The notes under the pieces were generated by a model. That model saw nothing but the letters and a program-made list of their open reading frames with translations. It was not told where the DNA came from and made no database searches. DNA of 6,135 nt from a virus, in IMG/VR virus record IMGVR_UViG_3300020019_000004, positions 1 to 6,135 of that record, one strand, 5' to 3'. Below are positions 1-6,135 of the stretch, piece by piece; the first letter of the stretch is position 1, and the number at the start of each line of letters is the position of its first letter. Both the position numbers and the translations under genes were made by a program.

Positions 1-121
1 TGGTTAGAAAGTTGCAGCGATGTCTTATTGGAAACACGAAGCCAAGCCATAAGCGAGTTCGGATAGGCACGCGAAGCACCAAGAGCAGAATTAGGAGTGG
101 TGGTGCCGGATGTACCAACAA
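1..121. repeat. Terminal direct repeat, copy 1 (circular-assembly overlap)
   Basis: I compared this stretch base by base with 6015..6135 and all 121 nt match (tggttagaaagttgcagcg...ggatgtaccaacaa). It lies inside the capsid coding sequence, so it is redundancy from linearising a circle and not a biological repeat. Confidence 0.95.
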
Positions 122-434
122 GAGCGGTAATCCAATTCAAGCTCAAATCATTCATGTCGAACTTACTACTATTCGTCCTCATTTCGGGGTGATACAGCTG
201 AAGCGGCACCCAAAAACGGTGAAGCCGAACAGTATAAGGGTTAAACGTCGGAACGGCAAGAGGATTGCTACGAACGTCGATACCCTGCTCGATAGAAACG
301 CGATCACGAGCATTAATAAAATCAATGCGCACTGGATACAAAATACCCGGCGTGCAAGTAAAGGCTTTACTCTCAGGAACATCGTAACGAGAGTAGCCAT
401 TTACAGCGTGAGAAATAAAAGGTTGTTTTCCCAT
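1..434 (-). CDS. VP1: Major capsid protein (phiX174 F / VP1 family), N-terminal segment; the ORF runs off the window start and continues at 6014 after circularisation
   Basis: I translated the minus strand by hand from the ATG at 434..432 and found no stop down to base 1. The product reads MGKQPFISHAVNGYSRYDVPESKAFTCTPGILYPVRIDFINARDRVSIEQGIDVRSNPLAVPTFNPYTVRLHRFWVPLQLYHPEMRTNSSKFDMNDLSLNWITALVGTSGTTTPNSALGASRAYPNSL, then M(50..48)AWLRV... This is in frame with the listed ORF 4649..6064 (434-50 = 384 = 128 codons). The pattern F-x-SH ... G-x-L-x-P ... P-x-x-x-P ... FxVP-x-x-L is the usual N-terminal signature of microvirus capsid proteins. The full length is 434 + 1366 = 1800 nt, which gives 599 aa plus a stop. 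The ORF track missed this segment because it has no stop inside the window. Confidence 0.9.
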   Translation of the reverse strand, partial: MGKQPFISHAVNGYSRYDVPESKAFTCTPGILYPVRIDFINARDRVSIEQGIDVRSNPLAVPTFNPYTVRLHRFWVPLQLYHPEMRTNSSKFDMNDLSLNWITALVGTSGTTTPNSALGASRAYPNSLMAWLRVSNKTSLQLSN

Positions 435-437
435 AAA

Positions 438-1508
438 TTAAATAATTAGTTGAAGTTTATAATGATCTCTCCAAAACTGAAGAATATCCATATCTAGCCA
501 AGTAGGGGGGTCAAAATCGGGCATCTTCCAAGAAGACGCAGAAAAACGCATTATTTGCTTTTGCTCCCACGTATACGACGCTCTACTGGATACGGTGGAA
601 TCGAGGGAGAACCGCTCAACACACAAAGACACAATACGCTTAACCAGAGAAGACTTGCTAAAACGTGCATAAGCGTCAGCAGCAGCAATCGAACGCATAA
701 CTTCGTCTTCCGATTTGAGATACTTATGATAGTATCGAGGGATCGAGTAATTATAATTGATACGCTTCGAAAAATCAAAATAAGACCACGACGCAACGCG
801 AGCAGAAGGACGAGGCATATAACCAAGAAAATCACCAACGCCAGCAGATACGAATTTTCGCGTATAACGGCGATGTTGGAGGAGGATAGATAAAGGTATA
901 AGGTTTCCATTTACAGTAACATATTTATCCGAAATTTCTTCGGGATTAAACTGAATTTGCTTAGTAACATACTTAACACAATAACGAGCCCGTTTATGAG
1001 TAGCCTTCGCTAGCCATAAAAAACCGAGGTCTCGAACAGCGGCACGAATAGTGTTGTAAAGGACATTTGTGCCAAACAAGAACCCATGAAAGTGTAAGCG
1101 AGGTTCGTTCCCCATTTCAGGGTGAGTGCCGAATTCTTGGAAGAAAGCATGTTTGAACGAATGACCAAGTTTGTGCCGCAACCGCTCGTTGAAACGACGA
1201 ATGAATCGAGAAGGATCAAGTAACGCCTCATTATAATACTTTGGGGCAATTGTAATTGTGACAAAAATAGCCTGCTGACTATCAGCTTTACAACGAGTAA
1301 GTTCGCGCTCCAAACGAATGAACCAGTCATTACGCTGACGACGCAAACAGTCTTCACACTTTCCACATGGGACCATCAACCATTGGCGAGCGATATCCCA
1401 GGGACGAAGGGAGAGTGCAGACTTAGCGACATCAGAACCGTTACGACAAGGATTTTTCTTGTCAAAATAACGGCGATTTCGTATCCATATGGGAGAAGAA
1501 CAGGCCAC
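438..1508 (-). CDS. VP4: Rolling-circle replication initiator (HUH endonuclease, phiX174 protein A / VP4 family), 356 aa, GTG start
   Basis: The protein has a Cys cluster, PCGKCEDCLRRQRNDW, at aa 47-62. Motif 1 is IFVTITIAP (aa 81-89). The HUH-type motif is RLHFHGFLF (H139 codon 1094..1092, and H141). The double-tyrosine motif is YCVKYVTK (Y176 = 983..981, Y180 = 971..969); as I recall it, this matches the phiX174 protein A active site YVAKYVNK. The first codon is GTG (1508..1506). The frame is closed by TAA four codons upstream, and the first in-frame ATG is codon 45. Confidence 0.92.
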   Translation of the reverse strand: MACSSPIWIRNRRYFDKKNPCRNGSDVAKSALSLRPWDIARQWLMVPCGKCEDCLRRQRNDWFIRLERELTRCKADSQQAIFVTITIAPKYYNEALLDPSRFIRRFNERLRHKLGHSFKHAFFQEFGTHPEMGNEPRLHFHGFLFGTNVLYNTIRAAVRDLGFLWLAKATHKRARYCVKYVTKQIQFNPEEISDKYVTVNGNLIPLSILLQHRRYTRKFVSAGVGDFLGYMPRPSARVASWSYFDFSKRINYNYSIPRYYHKYLKSEDEVMRSIAAADAYARFSKSSLVKRIVSLCVERFSLDSTVSSRASYTWEQKQIMRFSASSWKMPDFDPPTWLDMDILQFWRDHYKLQLII

Positions 1509-1873: not shown

Positions 1874-1919
1874 CTCAGCGAGTTAAAGGACTCTTCCACC
1901 AAGCGGGCGGGTCACTACT

Positions 1920-2243
1920 CTAGTGCCCTTTCCCTTCTTCTTGCGACGCGCTTTCATTATGAGTCAAATTAGTGCTAAACATAAGAACAAGTGTATTATC
2001 GAAGAAATCAATCGAAAAATCAGGATACGCAATCAGGGCCTCTACAAGGCTAGGTATCTGACAATGATTGATATAGGGCGAAGCAGAGATACTAGAATGC
2101 TCTATAAAATCAGAAACAGGAGTATGATCAAGAGCATCAAGAGGCAGTGTCGAAAACTGGTCATCTTTAATACAGCCTACCTGAACAAGATCGACCTTAA
2201 GAGCCGGATTAATACGGCGGACAACGATATGAACTTGTGTCAT
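1920..2243 (-). CDS. Hypothetical acidic 107-aa protein
   Basis: It starts at ATG 2243..2241 and is on the same strand as all other genes. The amino-acid composition is balanced but has roughly 14 Asp/Glu against 5 Arg/Lys. It is followed by the terminator. It is preferred over the antisense ORF 1923..2258, which needs a GTG start and is K/R/I/N-rich. I recognise no motif. Confidence 0.6.
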   Translation of the reverse strand: MTQVHIVVRRINPALKVDLVQVGCIKDDQFSTLPLDALDHTPVSDFIEHSSISASPYINHCQIPSLVEALIAYPDFSIDFFDNTLVLMFSTNLTHNESASQEEGKGH

Positions 2244-2642: not shown

Positions 2643-4013
2643 TTAACGATTCCTTCGAGTAGTATTGTACGAGCTCGAATGAGTACCACGAGTCATCTCT
2701 GTCTTCGCATAACCAACAAGATTCCCCTTCGAGTCGTAACGAGTTGTGAGCGAAGAGCCAGCGGAGTTACTGGTAGAACCGCCGGCAGAGATAGTCTTGG
2801 AAGCGCGAGACATGCCTCCACGAATTATGCCTGCGCCGGCGATGCTAGCGGCCGCACCAACCAAAGCTTTGGAAATTTCGACATACGGATCAACCTTTGC
2901 ATTGCGAAGGGCAATACGAGCTTGCTCAGGAAGAAAGTCAGACGCGTTTGCCTCATTTATAATAGTTTTATCATAAAAGTCTTTAAGCGACATCGAAATT
3001 TTGAAAGTTCTAGGACCAGGATTTCCACGGATGATGGGATTTTTGCTTCTAAGATTTTCTAAATACTGAGGATTCGGAATTTCAACATCGAAACGCTTAT
3101 CCCAATTACGCGCGAGCTCATTGGCAGTATCGAGATTGTTTAAGCGAAAAGACTCTATGACTTCGCGAGCCTGCTCACCAAGAGTTTGATTAAGAACGGC
3201 TTGAGTATTCATCATGAAGGCTTGAGCCGACATGACAGCGCCTAAATGATCATTCTCAATATTCAAACGACGAACTTCCGCAGCAGTCAGGGCAGCTTGA
3301 TTCTTTTTTTCATCAATAGTGCTCAAGAGAGTAGCATCTGAGATAAAAAGCGCATTCCTTTCAAGACCTTCCTGCACCTTAAGAACGTCAGCGACGGCTA
3401 TGTTATGCTTAGCGGCGGCCTGATCTAGAGCTACGCGAGTTTGAGCCATAAGAGTGTATAATTGATTACCAACGTTTTGGTCGCTAATCGATTGAGCTTC
3501 AGCATTATCGCGATTAGCAGCGGCAGCGTTGCGATCAACCGTAGACTGTGCAACCATATTCTGCGCAATAGCAGTAGGGTCGCCAACGGGGGAACCGCCA
3601 GGACTGACAGGGGAACCGCCGGAGGGGCCAGAGGCAGAAGGCATAGCAGCAGAACCACCAGACATGGTAGCGTTTACGCCAACACCAGAAGAACCTAAAA
3701 CAGCAGCAGGCGTAACACCTGCCTTCAGATAACGATCGAAGACTTTCGAAGGGTCATTATAAGCATTCTCATAATCAAACTGTCTCTGCCAATTAGCATA
3801 AGAAAGCTCTGACTGTTTTTGCATTTGCTCTAAAGCATACTGCTGTTGAAGCTTCATCTGCTTTTGCTGGAAACGCCATTGGCGGCGAGCATTCATTCCA
3901 CCAAAAAGCTGACCAAGGGCGCCAGTTATCAAACCGGTAGCACCAGTAGAGGCAGCAGACTGGCCAAGAGCTTGACCAAAAGATGCGGCAATAGGAGCGA
4001 CAGGAACAGGCAT
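2643..4013 (-). CDS. VP2: DNA pilot / minor capsid protein (phiX174 H / VP2 family), 456 aa
   Basis: The N-terminus is rich in Gly, Ala and Gln (PIAASFGQALGQSAASTGATGLITGALGQLFGG). It is followed by QMKLQQQYALEQMQKQSELSYANWQRQFDYENAYNDPSKVFDRYLKAGVTPAAVLG, which corresponds to the conserved ...Y-x-R-x-x-x-AG-(L/V)-(N/T)-P... block of microvirus VP2 proteins. A long helical, coiled-coil-like middle region and a Ser/Gly-rich tail follow. Its size and its position relative to VP1 are typical. Confidence 0.85.
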   Translation of the reverse strand: MPVPVAPIAASFGQALGQSAASTGATGLITGALGQLFGGMNARRQWRFQQKQMKLQQQYALEQMQKQSELSYANWQRQFDYENAYNDPSKVFDRYLKAGVTPAAVLGSSGVGVNATMSGGSAAMPSASGPSGGSPVSPGGSPVGDPTAIAQNMVAQSTVDRNAAAANRDNAEAQSISDQNVGNQLYTLMAQTRVALDQAAAKHNIAVADVLKVQEGLERNALFISDATLLSTIDEKKNQAALTAAEVRRLNIENDHLGAVMSAQAFMMNTQAVLNQTLGEQAREVIESFRLNNLDTANELARNWDKRFDVEIPNPQYLENLRSKNPIIRGNPGPRTFKISMSLKDFYDKTIINEANASDFLPEQARIALRNAKVDPYVEISKALVGAAASIAGAGIIRGGMSRASKTISAGGSTSNSAGSSLTTRYDSKGNLVGYAKTEMTRGTHSSSYNTTRRNR

Positions 4014-4014
4014 A

Positions 4015-4206
4015 CTATATATGGGTTAAATTATTAGAACGAATAATATAGTCGACGCGAACAGTGTCAATGTGAACACCACTACGCTGCATCCTAGCCT
4101 GAGCAGAACACGAGGCAAGGAAAAAGGCAGCCAAAGCAGCAACAATAGAAGAAACAAGCGTCCAAAAAGCTTTCGACTTATAGAAAGGTTGTTTAGTGTC
4201 AGACAT
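4015..4206 (-). CDS. Small predicted lipoprotein (63-aa precursor, about 31-aa mature lipopeptide)
   Basis: It starts at ATG 4206..4204. The N-region carries K5, K10 and K12. The hydrophobic core is FWTLVSSIVAALAAFF. The lipobox is L-A-S-C, with Cys33 at codon 4110..4108. The stop at 4017..4015 lies 1 nt from the VP2 ATG, so the gene sits within the structural gene block. Confidence 0.7.
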   Translation of the reverse strand: MSDTKQPFYKSKAFWTLVSSIVAALAAFFLASCSAQARMQRSGVHIDTVRVDYIIRSNNLTHI

Positions 4207-4231
4207 AAGAATAAAATTTAAAGAACGATAG

Positions 4232-4309
4232 AAAAATGCGCGGCCTCTCCCTCAGTCGTTACCAATAACCTTCAGCAATTCACGAACTCTTGCAGAAGGG
4301 GTCCGCGCA
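4232..4309 (-). other. Nested GC-rich stem-loop followed by a T5 run (possible attenuator/terminator or ssDNA structure) in the second intergenic region
   Basis: The outer stem on the minus strand is TGCGCGG (4309..4303) paired with CCGCGCA (4243..4237), followed by TTTTT (4236..4232). The inner hairpin is CCTTCTGCAA (4299..4290) paired with TTGCTGAAGG (4278..4269), with 9 of 10 positions paired and an 11-nt loop. The 59-nt distance between the outer arms is long for a classical terminator. Confidence 0.35.
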
Positions 4310-4339
4310 CGTAGCATATATCGTCAAGTAAAGAATACA

Positions 4340-4636
4340 CTATTTTTCTTCAGAATCAGTAGACCTCGAAGTGGGCTTCGATCTATCTAACTCCGAATCA
4401 ATGAGTTCCTGACCAATCTCGAGACCATCAAACTTATCCATACGAGAGAATGAATTAGGGTCGAAGTCGATTTCAGGGTTAAACCTCTCGCCCTTCTCGA
4501 AATCAGAGGGCTCAGCCGTTATATCCGGGCGACCGGGAATAACATCTACGGAGCCAGAACCATCAAGAACGGAAAGAATACGTTGACCGCGAGAAACGTA
4601 AGCGGGAGTATCTTCAAGGAGCCAATCAAGTGCCAT
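4340..4636 (-). CDS. Hypothetical strongly acidic 98-aa protein, possibly a scaffolding-type protein
   Basis: It starts at ATG 4636..4634, 12 nt after the VP1 stop, on the same strand. It has about 23 Asp/Glu against 11 Arg/Lys. Calling it a scaffold rests only on its acidity and its position next to the capsid gene. Confidence 0.6.
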   Translation of the reverse strand: MALDWLLEDTPAYVSRGQRILSVLDGSGSVDVIPGRPDITAEPSDFEKGERFNPEIDFDPNSFSRMDKFDGLEIGQELIDSELDRSKPTSRSTDSEEK

Positions 4637-4648
4637 AAGATTAATATA

Positions 4649-6135
4649 TTAACGGTTAGACAAACGAGTTGCAAACGTCTTATTAATTAAGTTCTTCTTC
4701 TGAACCGAATAAGACATATTTACAAAGAAATTATCCTCTACCTTGGAAGCAAAGGGCGAATTAACTTGTGCCATATCCACAAAGAGTGCGGGATAATAAT
4801 TAGCGCTAGCGGAGCCTACATACGAAAAACCAAGAGAACGTTGCTGTACCCAATACGAGTAAAGAGGCTTGGGAAGGCCTAACTCAGGAGCGGGATATGC
4901 GGACAATGAACCTAATACCTCATCATAGGATGAACGAAACTCGTTAAAACAAGGCTCGTAAGCGACCGCGAGACCAAGGTTAGAACCTGCGGCGTTACTA
5001 AAAAGCCGCGCAGCGGGGACATCCTGATAGCCAATATCGTTATAAATAGGATTAAAATAATCCGAGCCTTGATAACCCAAGTAATCGGGGGTAATTCCGC
5101 TCCAAAAATAGACAGGACGAATACTCAGCATGTCGATCATATAGCCAGGTTCGCGGAAATAATAGGACTGTCGACGACCTAATCGATCGTTAAAAGCAAT
5201 AGCTCCACCTTGCTGACCGAGGGGGCCGTTAGCCGACGGGCCAGCAAAATTATTTTGGCCGGCTTGATTCATGACGATCTGTACATTAACAGTTTGCGAA
5301 GCACTAAAAAGAAGCTTCGGGCGATCGACGTGTTCGATCTTCGATGCAAAAAACGTCTCCAGCCAATCACTATAACGACTGCCGCCAGCACCAAGGAGGT
5401 CTTTGTATTCCTGAAGACGAGAAGCGATAGCCAACTGCGGGATAGTGTTTACGCCGGTCATGGAAACAGCGGACGATGAGCCCACAGGAATGAGACGACT
5501 AAAGCGATCAGGATTCGAGGGCACAACAGCCATAGGATGTGCAAACAAGAAAGCCGAAATACTAGAGACAGAGGTCGAACCTACTTCGACAGAGAACTGG
5601 CCGGATGGACCGCTTCCAGTGGCGATATTAGCACCGCTAGGCAACGTAGTAGAAACAGGGTAACCATTTTGATCGCCACCTGTCGGAAGTTGGGAATCGA
5701 TTATCTGGAAAAACAAGTTGCCTCTATTGAAAGTATTGTTCGTGCTCGAAACAGCTGACGGATAAAACTGACTCTCAAAATAAGAATCAAGAAATTCTAG
5801 GTTGGCGAACTCCTGCTTGAAAAATGTAGACTCAGAAGAAAAAGAATAGGAGTTATCCAAAACCGACCAGGAAGCAGGCCACGCGACCGAAAATAAAGAC
5901 CACTGTGAGTAGCTGTAATAATTTCGAACAATATCCCAATAAGCTAAATATGTATCAGCGTTTGCCCACTGATTAACCGCAGCGCCAGAAGGGAGGCTAG
6001 CAGTATAAGGAGGTTGGTTAGAAAGTTGCAGCGATGTCTTATTGGAAACACGAAGCCAAGCCATAAGCGAGTTCGGATAGGCACGCGAAGCACCAAGAGC
6101 AGAATTAGGAGTGGTGGTGCCGGATGTACCAACAA
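4649..6135 (-). CDS. VP1: Major capsid protein, main and C-terminal part (aa 106-599 plus stop); the 5' end is open at the window edge and overlaps the redundant copy of 1..121
   Basis: The track lists ORF 4649..6064, but the frame stays open upstream to the window end (codon phase 6133, 6130...). Bases 6015..6135 repeat 1..121, so the real start is the ATG at 434. The product is large, rich in aromatic residues and Gly/Ser/Asn, as expected for a jelly-roll capsid protein with long insertion loops. The stop is TAA at 4651..4649. Confidence 0.9.
   Translation of the reverse strand, partial: VGTSGTTTPNSALGASRAYPNSLMAWLRVSNKTSLQLSNQPPYTASLPSGAAVNQWANADTYLAYWDIVRNYYSYSQWSLFSVAWPASWSVLDNSYSFSSESTFFKQEFANLEFLDSYFESQFYPSAVSSTNNTFNRGNLFFQIIDSQLPTGGDQNGYPVSTTLPSGANIATGSGPSGQFSVEVGSTSVSSISAFLFAHPMAVVPSNPDRFSRLIPVGSSSAVSMTGVNTIPQLAIASRLQEYKDLLGAGGSRYSDWLETFFASKIEHVDRPKLLFSASQTVNVQIVMNQAGQNNFAGPSANGPLGQQGGAIAFNDRLGRRQSYYFREPGYMIDMLSIRPVYFWSGITPDYLGYQGSDYFNPIYNDIGYQDVPAARLFSNAAGSNLGLAVAYEPCFNEFRSSYDEVLGSLSAYPAPELGLPKPLYSYWVQQRSLGFSYVGSASANYYPALFVDMAQVNSPFASKVEDNFFVNMSYSVQKKNLINKTFATRLSNR
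6015..6135. repeat. Terminal direct repeat, copy 2 (circular-assembly overlap)
   Basis: Identical to 1..121, with an offset of exactly 6,014 nt. Confidence 0.95.

What the first reader, a model, noticed from the sequence alone, without database searches (positions are those of the whole stretch)
4015..4206. A small lipoprotein gene inside the structural module: a candidate lysis or superinfection-exclusion factor
The 63-aa ORF has a textbook signal-peptidase-II signal: a basic N-region, the hydrophobic core FWTLVSSIVAALAAFF, and the lipobox LAS|C at Cys33. Processing would leave a 31-aa mature lipopeptide, CSAQARMQRSGVHIDTVRVDYIIRSNNLTHI. The best-known microvirus lysis gene is phiX174 E, a transmembrane MraY inhibitor overprinted in gene D. 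As far as I know, most non-phiX microviruses have no assigned lysis gene. The mature size is similar to that of colicin lysis (bacteriocin release) lipoproteins. Other precedents are receptor-masking phage lipoproteins such as T5 Llp or Cor-type proteins, and outer-membrane spanin subunits, although no partner inner-membrane spanin is evident here. The gene sits 1 nt upstream of the VP2 start, so it is likely expressed along with the structural genes.
Basis: partly seen in the sequence, partly recalled or inferred. Interest (0 to 1): 0.7.

Follow-up and report, generated by a model that had tools for sequence, protein, structure and literature searches.

The report
Conserved small lipoprotein gene in microvirus
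The 63-codon ORF is a real, strongly conserved lipoprotein gene shared by a large group of gut microviruses that infect Bacteroidales such as Alistipes; it probably acts on the host envelope, perhaps in lysis, but its function is untested.

Summary
The ORF lies at 4015..4206 on the minus strand. It encodes 63 aa with a basic n-region, a hydrophobic core, the lipobox LAS|C (Cys33) and a 31-aa mature part. Its stop lies 1 nt before the VP2 start.

It is a genuine gene. It is intact and exactly 192 nt in 79/79 close relatives. pN/pS is about 0.1, similar to Rep and the scaffold gene, and the cysteine is invariant.

The family has hundreds of database clusters, all in microviruses, including prophages in two Alistipes genomes. 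No known protein family matches the mature part.

The N-terminal "signal" is the most conserved piece, while the roughly 30-aa mature modules are swapped between lineages. This N-terminal module weakly resembles the first transmembrane helix of small holin-like proteins of tailed phages.

These genomes have no endolysin or peptidase. I therefore favour an envelope-acting lysis or release factor (about 0.4) over superinfection exclusion (about 0.2). Nothing here tests function.

A rival lysis candidate appeared: a 119-aa hydrophobic ORF overprinted in Rep (551..910), supported by sharp suppression of synonymous variation.

The 100-aa form annotated in relatives is an artefact. The upstream stretch is a conserved noncoding hairpin.

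The parts
4015..4206 (-). Lipoprotein precursor gene (63 codons plus TAG)
   Evidence: ORF list and sequence. Intact at 192 nt in 79/79 relatives. pN/pS 0.095 or 0.13 on a subsample, comparable with Rep at 0.09 and the VP3-like gene at 0.15.
4111..4206 (-). Predicted signal peptide, residues 1-32: n-region MSDTKQPFYKSK and h-region AFWTLVSSIVAALAAFF. This is the most conserved module of the whole family.
   Evidence: pN/pS is 0.078-0.080, and second-position diversity in the h-region is 0.002 while third positions vary at 0.43. All invariant columns of the diverse alignment A1 lie here. Distant profile hits match only this part.
4108..4119 (-). Lipobox L30-A31-S32-C33
   Evidence: The regex matched all 120 database homologues and all 9 divergent phage homologues. 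Cys33 is present in 80/80 sequences.
4018..4110 (-). Mature 31-aa lipopeptide CSAQARMQRSGVHIDTVRVDYIIRSNNLTHI (type A module, motif G-x-H-x-D-T-V)
   Evidence: pN/pS 0.11. G43, H45, D47, T48 and V49 are invariant in A2. Other lineages carry unrelated modules of about 30 aa in its place. No family hit was found. No acidic residues follow the Cys.
4011..4017 (-). TAG-T-ATG junction with the VP2 (pilot protein) start
   Evidence: The same stop, 1 nt, ATG arrangement occurs in 79/79 relatives.
4222..4325 (-). Conserved noncoding element upstream of the gene. An imperfect hairpin of about 75 nt (4236..4310) is followed by a T-run (4232..4236). It is read as an N-terminal extension (the '100-aa form') in some annotations.
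   Evidence: The same nucleotides appear in different frames, with stops and indels, in relatives. The window has TGA where others have TGC. It is 88-89% identical even in otherwise diverged genomes (H18 and H19). The consensus fold has 31 pairs, 2 of them with compensatory changes.

Best explanation
SHOWN: 4015..4206 (minus strand) is a real, strongly constrained gene of a microvirus whose relatives integrate into Alistipes (Bacteroidales). It encodes a 63-aa precursor with a signal-peptidase-II type signal and an invariant lipobox cysteine. It sits after a conserved hairpin and T-run element, and its stop is 1 nt from the VP2 start.

INFERRED, step 1: it is translated with the late structural genes, exported by Sec, lipidated at Cys33 and cleaved. 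This gives a 31-aa, basic, probably beta-forming lipopeptide. Because no acidic residues follow the Cys, the lipopeptide should stay on the periplasmic side of a membrane, alongside a 32-aa membrane-embedded signal peptide.

INFERRED, step 2, the functional commitment: it is an envelope-acting lysis or release factor that works like a colicin-lysis (bacteriocin release) lipoprotein. In that model both the unusually conserved signal peptide, whose n- and h-regions resemble the first helix of small holin-like phage proteins, and the small lipopeptide damage the envelope late in infection. It may act alone or together with the overprinted 119-aa membrane protein encoded inside Rep.

Confidence that it is a genuine lipoprotein gene is about 0.9. 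Confidence in the lysis or release role is about 0.4, and that is the figure given below.
For: Gene reality. The ORF is 192 nt in 79/79 relatives. pN/pS is 0.10-0.13, against Rep 0.09, VP3-like 0.15, VP2 0.29 and the small accessory ORFs 0.27-0.48.

Lipoprotein signal. A cysteine directly after the hydrophobic core is kept in every family member examined, whatever the mature module.

Host: homologues lie in prophages of Alistipes sp. GCA_019425285.1 and A. montrealensis. There is no Shine-Dalgarno sequence before the ATG, as expected for Bacteroidota from general knowledge.

Core-gene behaviour: every relative examined carries a family member. It lies either before VP2 or between VP2 and Rep, and some relatives carry a different mature module at the same locus.

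No alternative enzyme: no peptidase or endolysin domain was found in any window ORF. None of about 170 lipoprotein-bearing loci has the phiHBP1-type M15 peptidase, and the 3 M15-bearing microvirus loci lack the lipoprotein.

The signal is more conserved than the cargo.

Link to lysis cassettes: the weakest profile hits are Cys-less two-helix proteins sharing the KLKALLKSKKFW-plus-helix module (hhalign probability 98.7%). They give weak PHROG holin matches. One of them lies two genes after an M15-type endolysin.
Against: There is no experimental evidence and no homology to any characterised lysis lipoprotein, spanin or single-gene lysis protein. The holin link is weak: the library E-values are 2e-4 to 9e-4 on a largely hydrophobic segment; the hhalign partner set was chosen by the same profile; only 1 of 3 genomic contexts shows an endolysin. 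The window's clade has another candidate, a conserved overprinted 119-aa protein with two or three hydrophobic helices inside Rep, which could be the true lysis gene. The gene is also kept in prophages, and its mature module is swapped between lineages; both fit an exclusion or receptor-masking role. A lipopeptide alone has no obvious way to breach peptidoglycan. The AF2 model of the mature part is low-confidence. The mutual exclusion with M15 peptidases rests on only a few clades.
Confidence: 0.4

Rival explanations
1. It is a superinfection-exclusion or receptor-masking lipoprotein that works like T5 Llp or Cor. The lipopeptide binds the periplasmic face of the envelope protein the phage uses for entry. 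This protects lysogens and infected cells, and stops progeny from being wasted on debris.
For: It is a small lipoprotein, as in the precedents. The gene is retained in integrated Alistipes prophages. Mature modules of about 30 aa are exchanged between related genomes while the signal is kept, as expected if the target varies between hosts. In the window's clade the gene sits next to the pilot protein gene.
Against: The gene behaves as a core gene rather than a patchy accessory one. It is present in every relative examined and is as constrained as Rep and the scaffold gene. Within type A the mature part is under purifying, not diversifying, selection (pN/pS 0.11). It has no homology to Cor or Llp and no PADLOC hit of note. 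This reading does not explain why the signal peptide is the most conserved part. Expression from the prophage state is unknown.
Confidence: 0.2
2. The lipoprotein has some other envelope role, such as aiding DNA delivery, pilot-protein handling or host takeover. The true lysis gene of this clade is then the overprinted 119-aa hydrophobic protein inside Rep (551..910), an E-like or holin-like single-gene lysis factor.
For: Rep third-position synonymous diversity falls from 0.44 to 0.15 exactly over codons 200-320, while Rep amino-acid diversity rises. VP1 shows no such dip and serves as a control. The alternative frame's longest open stretch is exactly 119 codons in 49 of 58 relatives and 116 codons or more in all 58. 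The ATG start and 119-aa length are also kept in L001-L003. The product has hydrophobic helices at about residues 21-39 and 75-98 and a basic C-terminal tail, which is a holin-like layout. phiX174 E and K are precedents for overprinted membrane proteins (general knowledge).
Against: No homologous overprinted ORF was recognised at that place in more distant lipoprotein-bearing relatives, whereas the lipoprotein family is widespread. The +1 frame of Rep is intrinsically poor in stops (P(>=119 open codons) = 0.22 in synonymous shuffles), so openness alone means little. The ORF has no PHROG hit. The two proteins could also act together, in which case this is not a true rival.
Confidence: 0.25
3. 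The hydrophobic segment is an uncleaved membrane anchor and the protein is not lipidated; the lipobox is incidental. The protein would then act as a bitopic membrane protein, like the phiX174 E transmembrane domain.
For: The n- and h-regions are conserved far more than is usual for a cleavable signal. Cys-less relatives with the same N-terminal module exist.
Against: A cysteine directly after the helix, usually preceded by S, A or G, is kept in every member across four unrelated mature module types and about 170 loci. This is hard to explain without lipidation.
Confidence: 0.08

Closest known systems
Colicin lysis proteins / bacteriocin release proteins (Pfam Lysis_col; e.g. pCloDF13 BRP, ColE1 Kil)
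   Same: Both have a very small prolipoprotein precursor and a mature lipopeptide of about 30 aa (31 here). Neither has an enzymatic domain. In BRPs the stable signal peptide itself contributes to lethality (general knowledge), which parallels the unusually conserved signal here.
   Different: There is no sequence similarity (no Pfam hit even at E<=10). This protein is encoded by an ssDNA phage of Bacteroidales, not by an enterobacterial colicin plasmid. The signal is long (32 aa) with a conserved n-region. The mature modules are interchangeable. Dependence on an outer-membrane phospholipase is unknown.
Spanins: o-spanin (lambda Rz1) and unimolecular spanin (T1 gp11)
   Same: All are small phage-encoded outer-membrane-type lipoproteins. 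In many relatives the same N-terminal module heads an ORF of about 190-200 aa that ends in a short hydrophobic patch and a basic tail. This superficially recalls the u-spanin layout.
   Different: The window protein has no C-terminal helix. No i-spanin partner, holin or endolysin is present. The mature part is not proline-rich and has no extra cysteine. In the long forms the middle 90 codons are unconstrained in this frame, and the hydrophobic patch is only about 11-16 residues long.
T5 Llp and Cor-type exclusion lipoproteins
   Same: All are small phage lipoproteins that act on the envelope. This gene is also present in prophages.
   Different: There is no homology. The mature part is half the size. 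The gene behaves as a core gene. No target is known.
phiX174 E (single-gene lysis, MraY inhibitor)
   Same: Both come from the family Microviridae, have a single N-terminal hydrophobic helix, are small and are expressed late.
   Different: E is overprinted in gene D, is not lipidated, and acts from the cytoplasmic membrane through its transmembrane helix. This gene has its own reading frame and a lipobox. The E-like feature in this genome is instead ORF 551..910 inside Rep.
Small two-helix holin-like proteins of tailed phages (weak matches to PHROG holin families 297, 2359, 4712 and 34682)
   Same: They share the N-terminal module x-K-L-K-A-L-L-K-S-(K/R)-K-F-W followed by an alanine-rich helix. 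One member lies near an M15 endolysin.
   Different: Those proteins have a second helix and no lipobox. The microviral proteins replace helix 2 with Cys plus a lipopeptide of about 30 aa. The similarity is weak and is partly driven by hydrophobic composition.

Membership tests
Bacterial lipoprotein precursors (signal peptidase II substrates; PROSITE PS51257 rule) | A positively charged n-region with K or R in the first 7 residues | tested here: met
   K5, with further lysines at K10 and K12. K5 and K12 are conserved.
Bacterial lipoprotein precursors (signal peptidase II substrates; PROSITE PS51257 rule) | An uncharged hydrophobic core followed by the lipobox [LVI..][ASTG..][AGS]C, with the Cys at position 15-35 | tested here: met
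   The core is A13-F29 and the lipobox is L-A-S-C33. The regex matched 120/120 database homologues and 9/9 divergent phage homologues. Cys33 is present in 80/80 sequences. Some type C relatives have L-E-S-C, which fails the strict regex but keeps the Cys.
Bacterial lipoprotein precursors (signal peptidase II substrates; PROSITE PS51257 rule) | Lipidation by Lgt and cleavage by LspA in the host | not testable with these tools
   This needs labelling, globomycin treatment or mass spectrometry. SignalP and LipoP were not available.
Colicin lysis protein / BRP family (Pfam Lysis_col) | Sequence membership of the family | tested here: not met
   Pfam returned no hit at E<=10 other than a sub-threshold match to the generic lipid-attachment site LPAM_1 (E=1).
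Colicin lysis protein / BRP family (Pfam Lysis_col) | A mature lipopeptide of about 28-33 aa with no enzymatic domain | tested here: met
   The mature part is 31 aa and has no domain hit.
Colicin lysis protein / BRP family (Pfam Lysis_col) | Causes quasi-lysis and release through envelope damage (phospholipase activation) | not testable with these tools
   An expression experiment is needed.
Two-component spanin, o-spanin subunit (Rz1-like) | A partner i-spanin gene (type II membrane protein with a periplasmic coiled coil) that is adjacent, overlapping or embedded | tested here: not met
   The neighbours are the acidic VP3-like protein and VP2. No such ORF appears in the ORF list.
Two-component spanin, o-spanin subunit (Rz1-like) | Part of a holin-endolysin lysis cassette | tested here: not met
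   No endolysin or peptidase domain was found in any window ORF, and there is no M15 homologue.
Unimolecular spanin (T1 gp11-like) | An N-terminal lipoprotein signal plus a C-terminal transmembrane helix in one polypeptide | tested here: not met
   The window protein ends 30 residues after the Cys with a hydrophilic tail. For the long forms in relatives the test is inconclusive: the hydrophobic patch is only 11-16 residues, the middle is unconstrained, and the tail is shared with a separate 24-aa gene.
Cor / Llp exclusion lipoproteins | Sequence membership of the family, or a defence-library match | tested here: not met
   Pfam, NCBIfam and PHROGs gave no match. The only PADLOC hit was a weak one to an uncharacterised candidate family (PDC-M02A, E=0.019).
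Cor / Llp exclusion lipoproteins | Blocks the phage's own receptor and is expressed in lysogens or early in infection | not testable with these tools
   Presence in prophages is shown, but expression and target are unknown.
Holins | At least one transmembrane helix that stays in the membrane plus a charged C-terminal domain, encoded next to an endolysin | tested here: inconclusive
   The N-terminal module resembles that of two-helix holin-like proteins. However, the window protein has one helix followed by a lipobox, and the genome has no endolysin.

The most novel reading that the evidence does not exclude
The precursor may be a single-gene lysis factor of a new type, in which the 'signal peptide' is the active part. 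Under this reading, a holin-derived, extremely conserved n/h-region plus lipobox engages the host's conserved lipoprotein-maturation or membrane machinery (Lgt, LspA or Lol, in the manner of a protein version of globomycin), or it accumulates as a membrane-active peptide. The interchangeable lipopeptide of about 30 aa would tune targeting. This would be the first lipoprotein-based lysis mechanism described in an ssDNA phage, and the lysis system of a large group of gut Bacteroidales microviruses.
Probability: 0.12. Interest if true: 0.85.

Novelty: new variant of a known kind. Interest (0 to 1): 0.6.

Why it matters
Microviruses are among the most abundant gut phages, yet how most of them leave the cell is unknown. 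Only phiX174 E and, by inference, some peptidases are linked to lysis. Here a tiny lipoprotein behaves as a core gene across a large group of Bacteroidales microviruses. These viruses have only recently gained a first cultured representative, and that one (phiHBP1) uses a different gene set.

If the gene is a lysis factor, it would point to a new weak spot in the Bacteroidota envelope. It would also give a 63-codon tool for controlled lysis of gut anaerobes. If it is an exclusion factor, it would identify the entry route of these phages.

The work also yields practical annotation corrections:
- the true gene length is 63 aa, not 100 aa;
- there is a conserved noncoding hairpin upstream of the gene;
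- there is an overprinted membrane-protein gene inside Rep;
- there is a 24-codon basic gene that gene callers miss.

Tried and rejected
1. The 100-aa version annotated in relatives is rejected. In the window the upstream frame has TGA. In other relatives the same conserved nucleotides sit in other frames, with stops and indels.

2. Family searches on the full and mature protein (Pfam, PHROGs, NCBIfam, PADLOC) gave only sub-threshold matches to generic lipoprotein signals.

3. The AlphaFold2 model built on a 40-sequence alignment is a single long helix. The mature part has pLDDT 53-68 and the model has pTM 0.37, so it was judged uninformative and not sent to the fold search.

4. The alternative-frame ORFs inside the lipoprotein gene (4026..4157 on the minus strand and 4072..4221 on the plus strand) are rejected. 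Four of the five other frames have pN/pS above 1. The fifth, the antisense frame that shares third positions, gives 0.24.

5. The hydrophobic alternative-frame ORF 179..400 in VP1 is not supported, because VP1 shows no clear synonymous suppression.

6. The idea that the long (about 190-200 aa) forms in relatives are a u-spanin was not adopted. Only the two ends are constrained in that frame. Openness of the middle has P = 0.08-0.48 by chance. The hydrophobic patch is short.

7. The resemblance of the basic tail and the 24-aa ORF to the phiX174, G4 and alpha3 J proteins is recalled from memory. A profile search of PDB sequences found no J protein, so it remains an analogy.

8. A third homologue search seeded with the holin-like P0207 returned only P0207 itself. 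The contexts of P0204 and P0206 were uninformative.

9. The scan of genome species representatives found only one prophage. The scan for M15 peptidase found only 3 loci. The co-occurrence argument is therefore thin.

10. Literature searches found no description of a microvirus lipoprotein.
Full report
WHAT THE WINDOW IS. The 6135-nt window is essentially a whole microvirus genome with all genes on the minus strand. The genes are Rep/VP4 (438..1508), the major capsid protein VP1 (434 down to 1, then continuing from 6135 to 4649), and an acidic VP3-like protein (4340..4636). A 133-nt gap follows, then the ORF in question (4015..4206), the pilot protein VP2 (2643..4013) and three small ORFs. The nearest database relatives are uncultured Microviridae from pig, civet, rodent, lemur and tortoise faeces.

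The gene lies on the minus strand. The sequence satisfies the PROSITE-type lipoprotein rule.

IT IS A REAL GENE. A scan of IMG/VR returned 80 close relatives. In the 79 that my motif search recovered, the ORF is exactly 192 nt. Nucleotide diversity is 0.42 at third codon positions against 0.085 and 0.034 at first and second positions. pN/pS is 0.095 overall: 0.078 for the n-region, 0.080 for the h-region plus lipobox, and 0.111 for the mature part. Four of the five other frames give ratios above 1; the fifth, the antisense frame that shares third positions, gives 0.24. Measured the same way on the same genomes, the lipoprotein (0.13) is as constrained as Rep (0.09) and the VP3-like gene (0.15). 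It is more constrained than VP2 (0.29) and the three small ORFs (0.27-0.48). These loci were chosen by similarity to the lipoprotein, which flatters its identity values but much less the ratio. The stop, 1 nt, ATG junction with VP2 is kept in 79/79.

THE TRUE START. Several relatives are annotated with a 100-aa version that begins at an upstream ATG, and the protein database holds both lengths. The extension is not coding. The window has TGA where those relatives have TGC. In other relatives the same conserved nucleotides lie in a different frame, with stops or with insertions. The stretch is instead a conserved noncoding element. It is 88-89% identical even in genomes that otherwise barely align (H18 and H19). 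It folds into a long imperfect hairpin (window 4236..4310) followed by a T-run. The consensus fold has 31 pairs, of which two show compensatory changes. It could be an attenuating terminator between the abundant capsid and scaffold genes and the less abundant pilot gene. It could also be an ssDNA hairpin used for complementary-strand synthesis. I did not resolve this.

THE FAMILY. The word-indexed search found 396 clusters. One carries the source name 'MAG TPA: lipoprotein [Microviridae sp.]', and the few others that carry any source name are called hypothetical protein. A profile search of 1.8 billion representatives found 74 clusters at 50% identity. The homologues whose genomic context I examined (about 170 loci) lie in microvirus genomes or microvirus prophages. 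The exceptions are the weakest hits discussed below.

HOST. Homologues lie in integrated microvirus prophages between the same host genes (ZnuA/ABC transporter on one side, HTH and HIT genes on the other). These occur in Alistipes sp. GCA_019425285.1, in metagenomic contigs, and in Alistipes montrealensis kh20. The host of the group is therefore Bacteroidales, at least Alistipes. For the window's own clade this is an inference. The A/T-rich, Shine-Dalgarno-free sequence before the ATG fits Bacteroidota (general knowledge).

ARCHITECTURE AND VARIATION. The gene's position is not fixed. It lies directly before VP2 in the window's clade and several others. In further lineages it lies between VP2 and Rep. 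The family is modular. The N-terminal roughly 33 residues (x-K-L-K-x-L-L-K-S-K-K-F-W-T-L-V-A-A-I-V-A-A-L-x-A-F-F-x-x-S-C) are conserved throughout, and all invariant columns of a diverse alignment lie there. The mature part comes in at least four unrelated versions of about 30 residues. Relatives that seemed to lack the gene turned out to carry a version with a different mature module (RHYVVQSASSIKSGDTTRTTITYEQVGNFKRP). It sits at exactly the same place, between the hairpin element and VP2. A cysteine directly after the helix is kept in all of them.

A signal peptide that is better conserved than its cargo is unusual. Here second codon positions of the h-region are almost invariant while third positions are nearly saturated. 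This suggests the N-terminal part does more than target the protein. The mature N-terminus (CSAQAR) lacks the acidic residues that mark surface-exported lipoproteins in Bacteroidota (general knowledge). I therefore expect a periplasm-facing lipopeptide.

LEADS ON FUNCTION. No characterised family matches: not Lysis_col, spanins, Cor or Llp, nor any meaningful defence model. AlphaFold2 gave no confident fold for the mature part. Four circumstantial lines bear on function.

(i) The window encodes no peptidase or endolysin. The only cultured Bacteroides microvirus, phiHBP1, has an M15-type peptidase and no lipoprotein. Among the loci I collected, none of about 170 lipoprotein-bearing ones has that peptidase, and the three microviral M15 loci lack the lipoprotein. 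The sample covers few clades.

(ii) The gene behaves as a core gene, not as a patchy accessory gene.

(iii) The weakest significant profile hits (E = 2e-4 to 9e-4) are Cys-less proteins with two hydrophobic helices. They share the n-region and first helix (for example MDKLKALLKTKTFW...). Profile-profile comparison gives 98.7% probability. They hit PHROG holin families weakly. One lies two genes downstream of an M15-type endolysin in a tailed-phage fragment. This is a lead, not proof: the segment is hydrophobic, the comparison set was chosen by the same profile, and two other contexts were uninformative.

(iv) Colicin lysis lipoproteins are a functional precedent for a lipopeptide of about 30 aa whose stable signal peptide contributes to killing (general knowledge).

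Against a lysis role, three points stand. The gene is kept in prophages. Its mature module is exchangeable, which suits a factor that binds a variable host surface component. And a second candidate exists, described next.

A RIVAL CANDIDATE INSIDE REP. To learn whether the lipoprotein is the only membrane protein, I looked for conserved alternative-frame ORFs. ORF 551..910 (minus strand, +1 frame of Rep codons 200-320) encodes 119 aa. It has strongly hydrophobic helices at about residues 21-39 and 75-98 and a basic C-terminal tail. Across 58 relatives, Rep's synonymous third-position diversity is 0.38-0.52 outside this ORF. Inside it the value drops to 0.09-0.22, with sharp edges at the ORF boundaries, while Rep's amino-acid diversity rises. 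VP1 shows no comparable dip and serves as a control. The alternative frame's longest open stretch is exactly 119 codons in 49 of the 58 relatives and at least 116 codons in all of them. The ATG start and 119-aa length are kept in L001-L003. This is the classic signature of an overprinted gene. It is analogous to phiX174 E or K, and it could be the lysis gene of this clade or a partner of the lipoprotein. I did not recognise it in more distant lipoprotein-bearing relatives, whereas the lipoprotein family is widespread.

LONG FORMS AND A MISSED MINI-GENE. About half of the 50%-identity clusters are 180-220 aa long. In these the lipoprotein module is followed by a Ser/Leu/Pro-rich stretch and a conserved tail ...RRGGRRGRPRPK-TKTIPLGGSHL. 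These ORFs are open in the standard code and lie just upstream of Rep, including in the A. montrealensis prophage. In related pairs, the first 60 codons and the last roughly 45 codons are constrained in this frame (pN/pS 0.1-0.2). The middle 90 codons are constrained only in the +2 frame, which encodes another gene. Keeping the middle open is not improbable by chance (P = 0.08-0.48). The tail corresponds to a separate 24-codon gene in the window, 1883..1957 (minus strand), MKARRKKKGKGTRVVTRPLGGRVL. It is present with an ATG and the same length in 76 of 80 relatives. From memory it resembles the small basic DNA-packaging protein J of phiX174, G4 and alpha3, but a profile search of PDB sequences found no J protein. 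I cannot tell whether the long forms are functional fusions or tolerated read-through. I do not file them as u-spanins.

VERDICT. The function is open. My ranking is: envelope-acting lysis or release factor working like a colicin-lysis lipoprotein (about 0.4); another envelope role, with lysis done by the overprinted ORF (about 0.25); superinfection exclusion (about 0.2); uncleaved membrane anchor (below 0.1). No paper in the searchable library describes a lipoprotein gene in Microviridae. The large survey of microvirus diversity mentions only peptidases as lysis-associated genes and explicitly omits overprinted genes. I rate the finding as a new variant of a known kind, namely small phage lipoproteins, with interest 0.6.

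Noticed in passing
window 551..910, minus strand (inside Rep/VP4, +1 frame): An overprinted 119-aa ORF encodes a very hydrophobic protein with two or three helices and a basic C-tail. Rep's synonymous third-position diversity drops from about 0.44 to about 0.15 exactly over this ORF, while Rep's amino-acid diversity rises. The alternative frame's longest open stretch is 119 codons in 49 of 58 relatives and at least 116 in all. It is a candidate E-like or holin-like lysis gene.
   Followed up: partly
window 1883..1957, minus strand: An unannotated 24-codon gene encodes MKARRKKKGKGTRVVTRPLGGRVL. It overlaps the 3' end of ORF 1920..2243 and is kept with an ATG and the same length in 76/80 relatives. 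From memory it resembles the J DNA-packaging protein of phiX174-like phages, but no PDB sequence match was found.
   Followed up: partly
window 4222..4325, minus strand (hairpin 4236..4310, T-run 4232..4236): A highly conserved noncoding hairpin plus T-run lies between the VP3-like gene and the lipoprotein gene. It is conserved at 88-89% even in otherwise diverged genomes, and two base pairs show compensatory changes. Some records mis-annotate it as the N-terminus of a 100-aa protein. It could be a terminator or attenuator, or an ssDNA replication signal.
   Followed up: partly
relatives L095, L096, L098, L099, L101, L108-L110, L134 (e.g. L096 6001..6585): In many lineages the lipoprotein ORF has no stop. 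It runs for about 190-200 codons through the +1 frame of the next gene into the basic-tail gene. Only the two ends are under purifying selection in that frame. It is unresolved whether this is a functional fusion or read-through.
   Followed up: partly
L010 (Alistipes sp. GCA_019425285.1), L012/L013, L096, L098 (A. montrealensis): Microvirus prophages are integrated at the same host locus, between a ZnuA/ABC transporter operon and HTH/HIT genes. They sit in opposite orientations in different genomes. In each case the phage genome is opened between VP2 and the small-ORF cluster that contains the lipoprotein.
   Followed up: no
window ends, about 1..120 and 6064..6135: The VP1 reading frame changes about 24 nt from the window end. 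The N-terminal 132 residues align in one frame and the rest in another. This may be an assembly or linearisation error at the circular junction, or a real frameshift.
   Followed up: partly
L097 (Bacteroides phage phiHBP1) 84..488, minus strand: The only cultured Bacteroides microvirus encodes an M15-type peptidase-like protein, annotated as hypothetical, and has no member of the lipoprotein family.
   Followed up: partly
L171 1063..1482 (P0206): A 139-aa lipoprotein in a probable tailed-phage fragment, next to a ThyX gene, carries an N-terminal segment resembling the type A mature motif (THDTIVEHQIIRDS versus VHIDTVRVDYIIRS), followed by Tyr/Asp/Lys-rich repeats.
   Followed up: no
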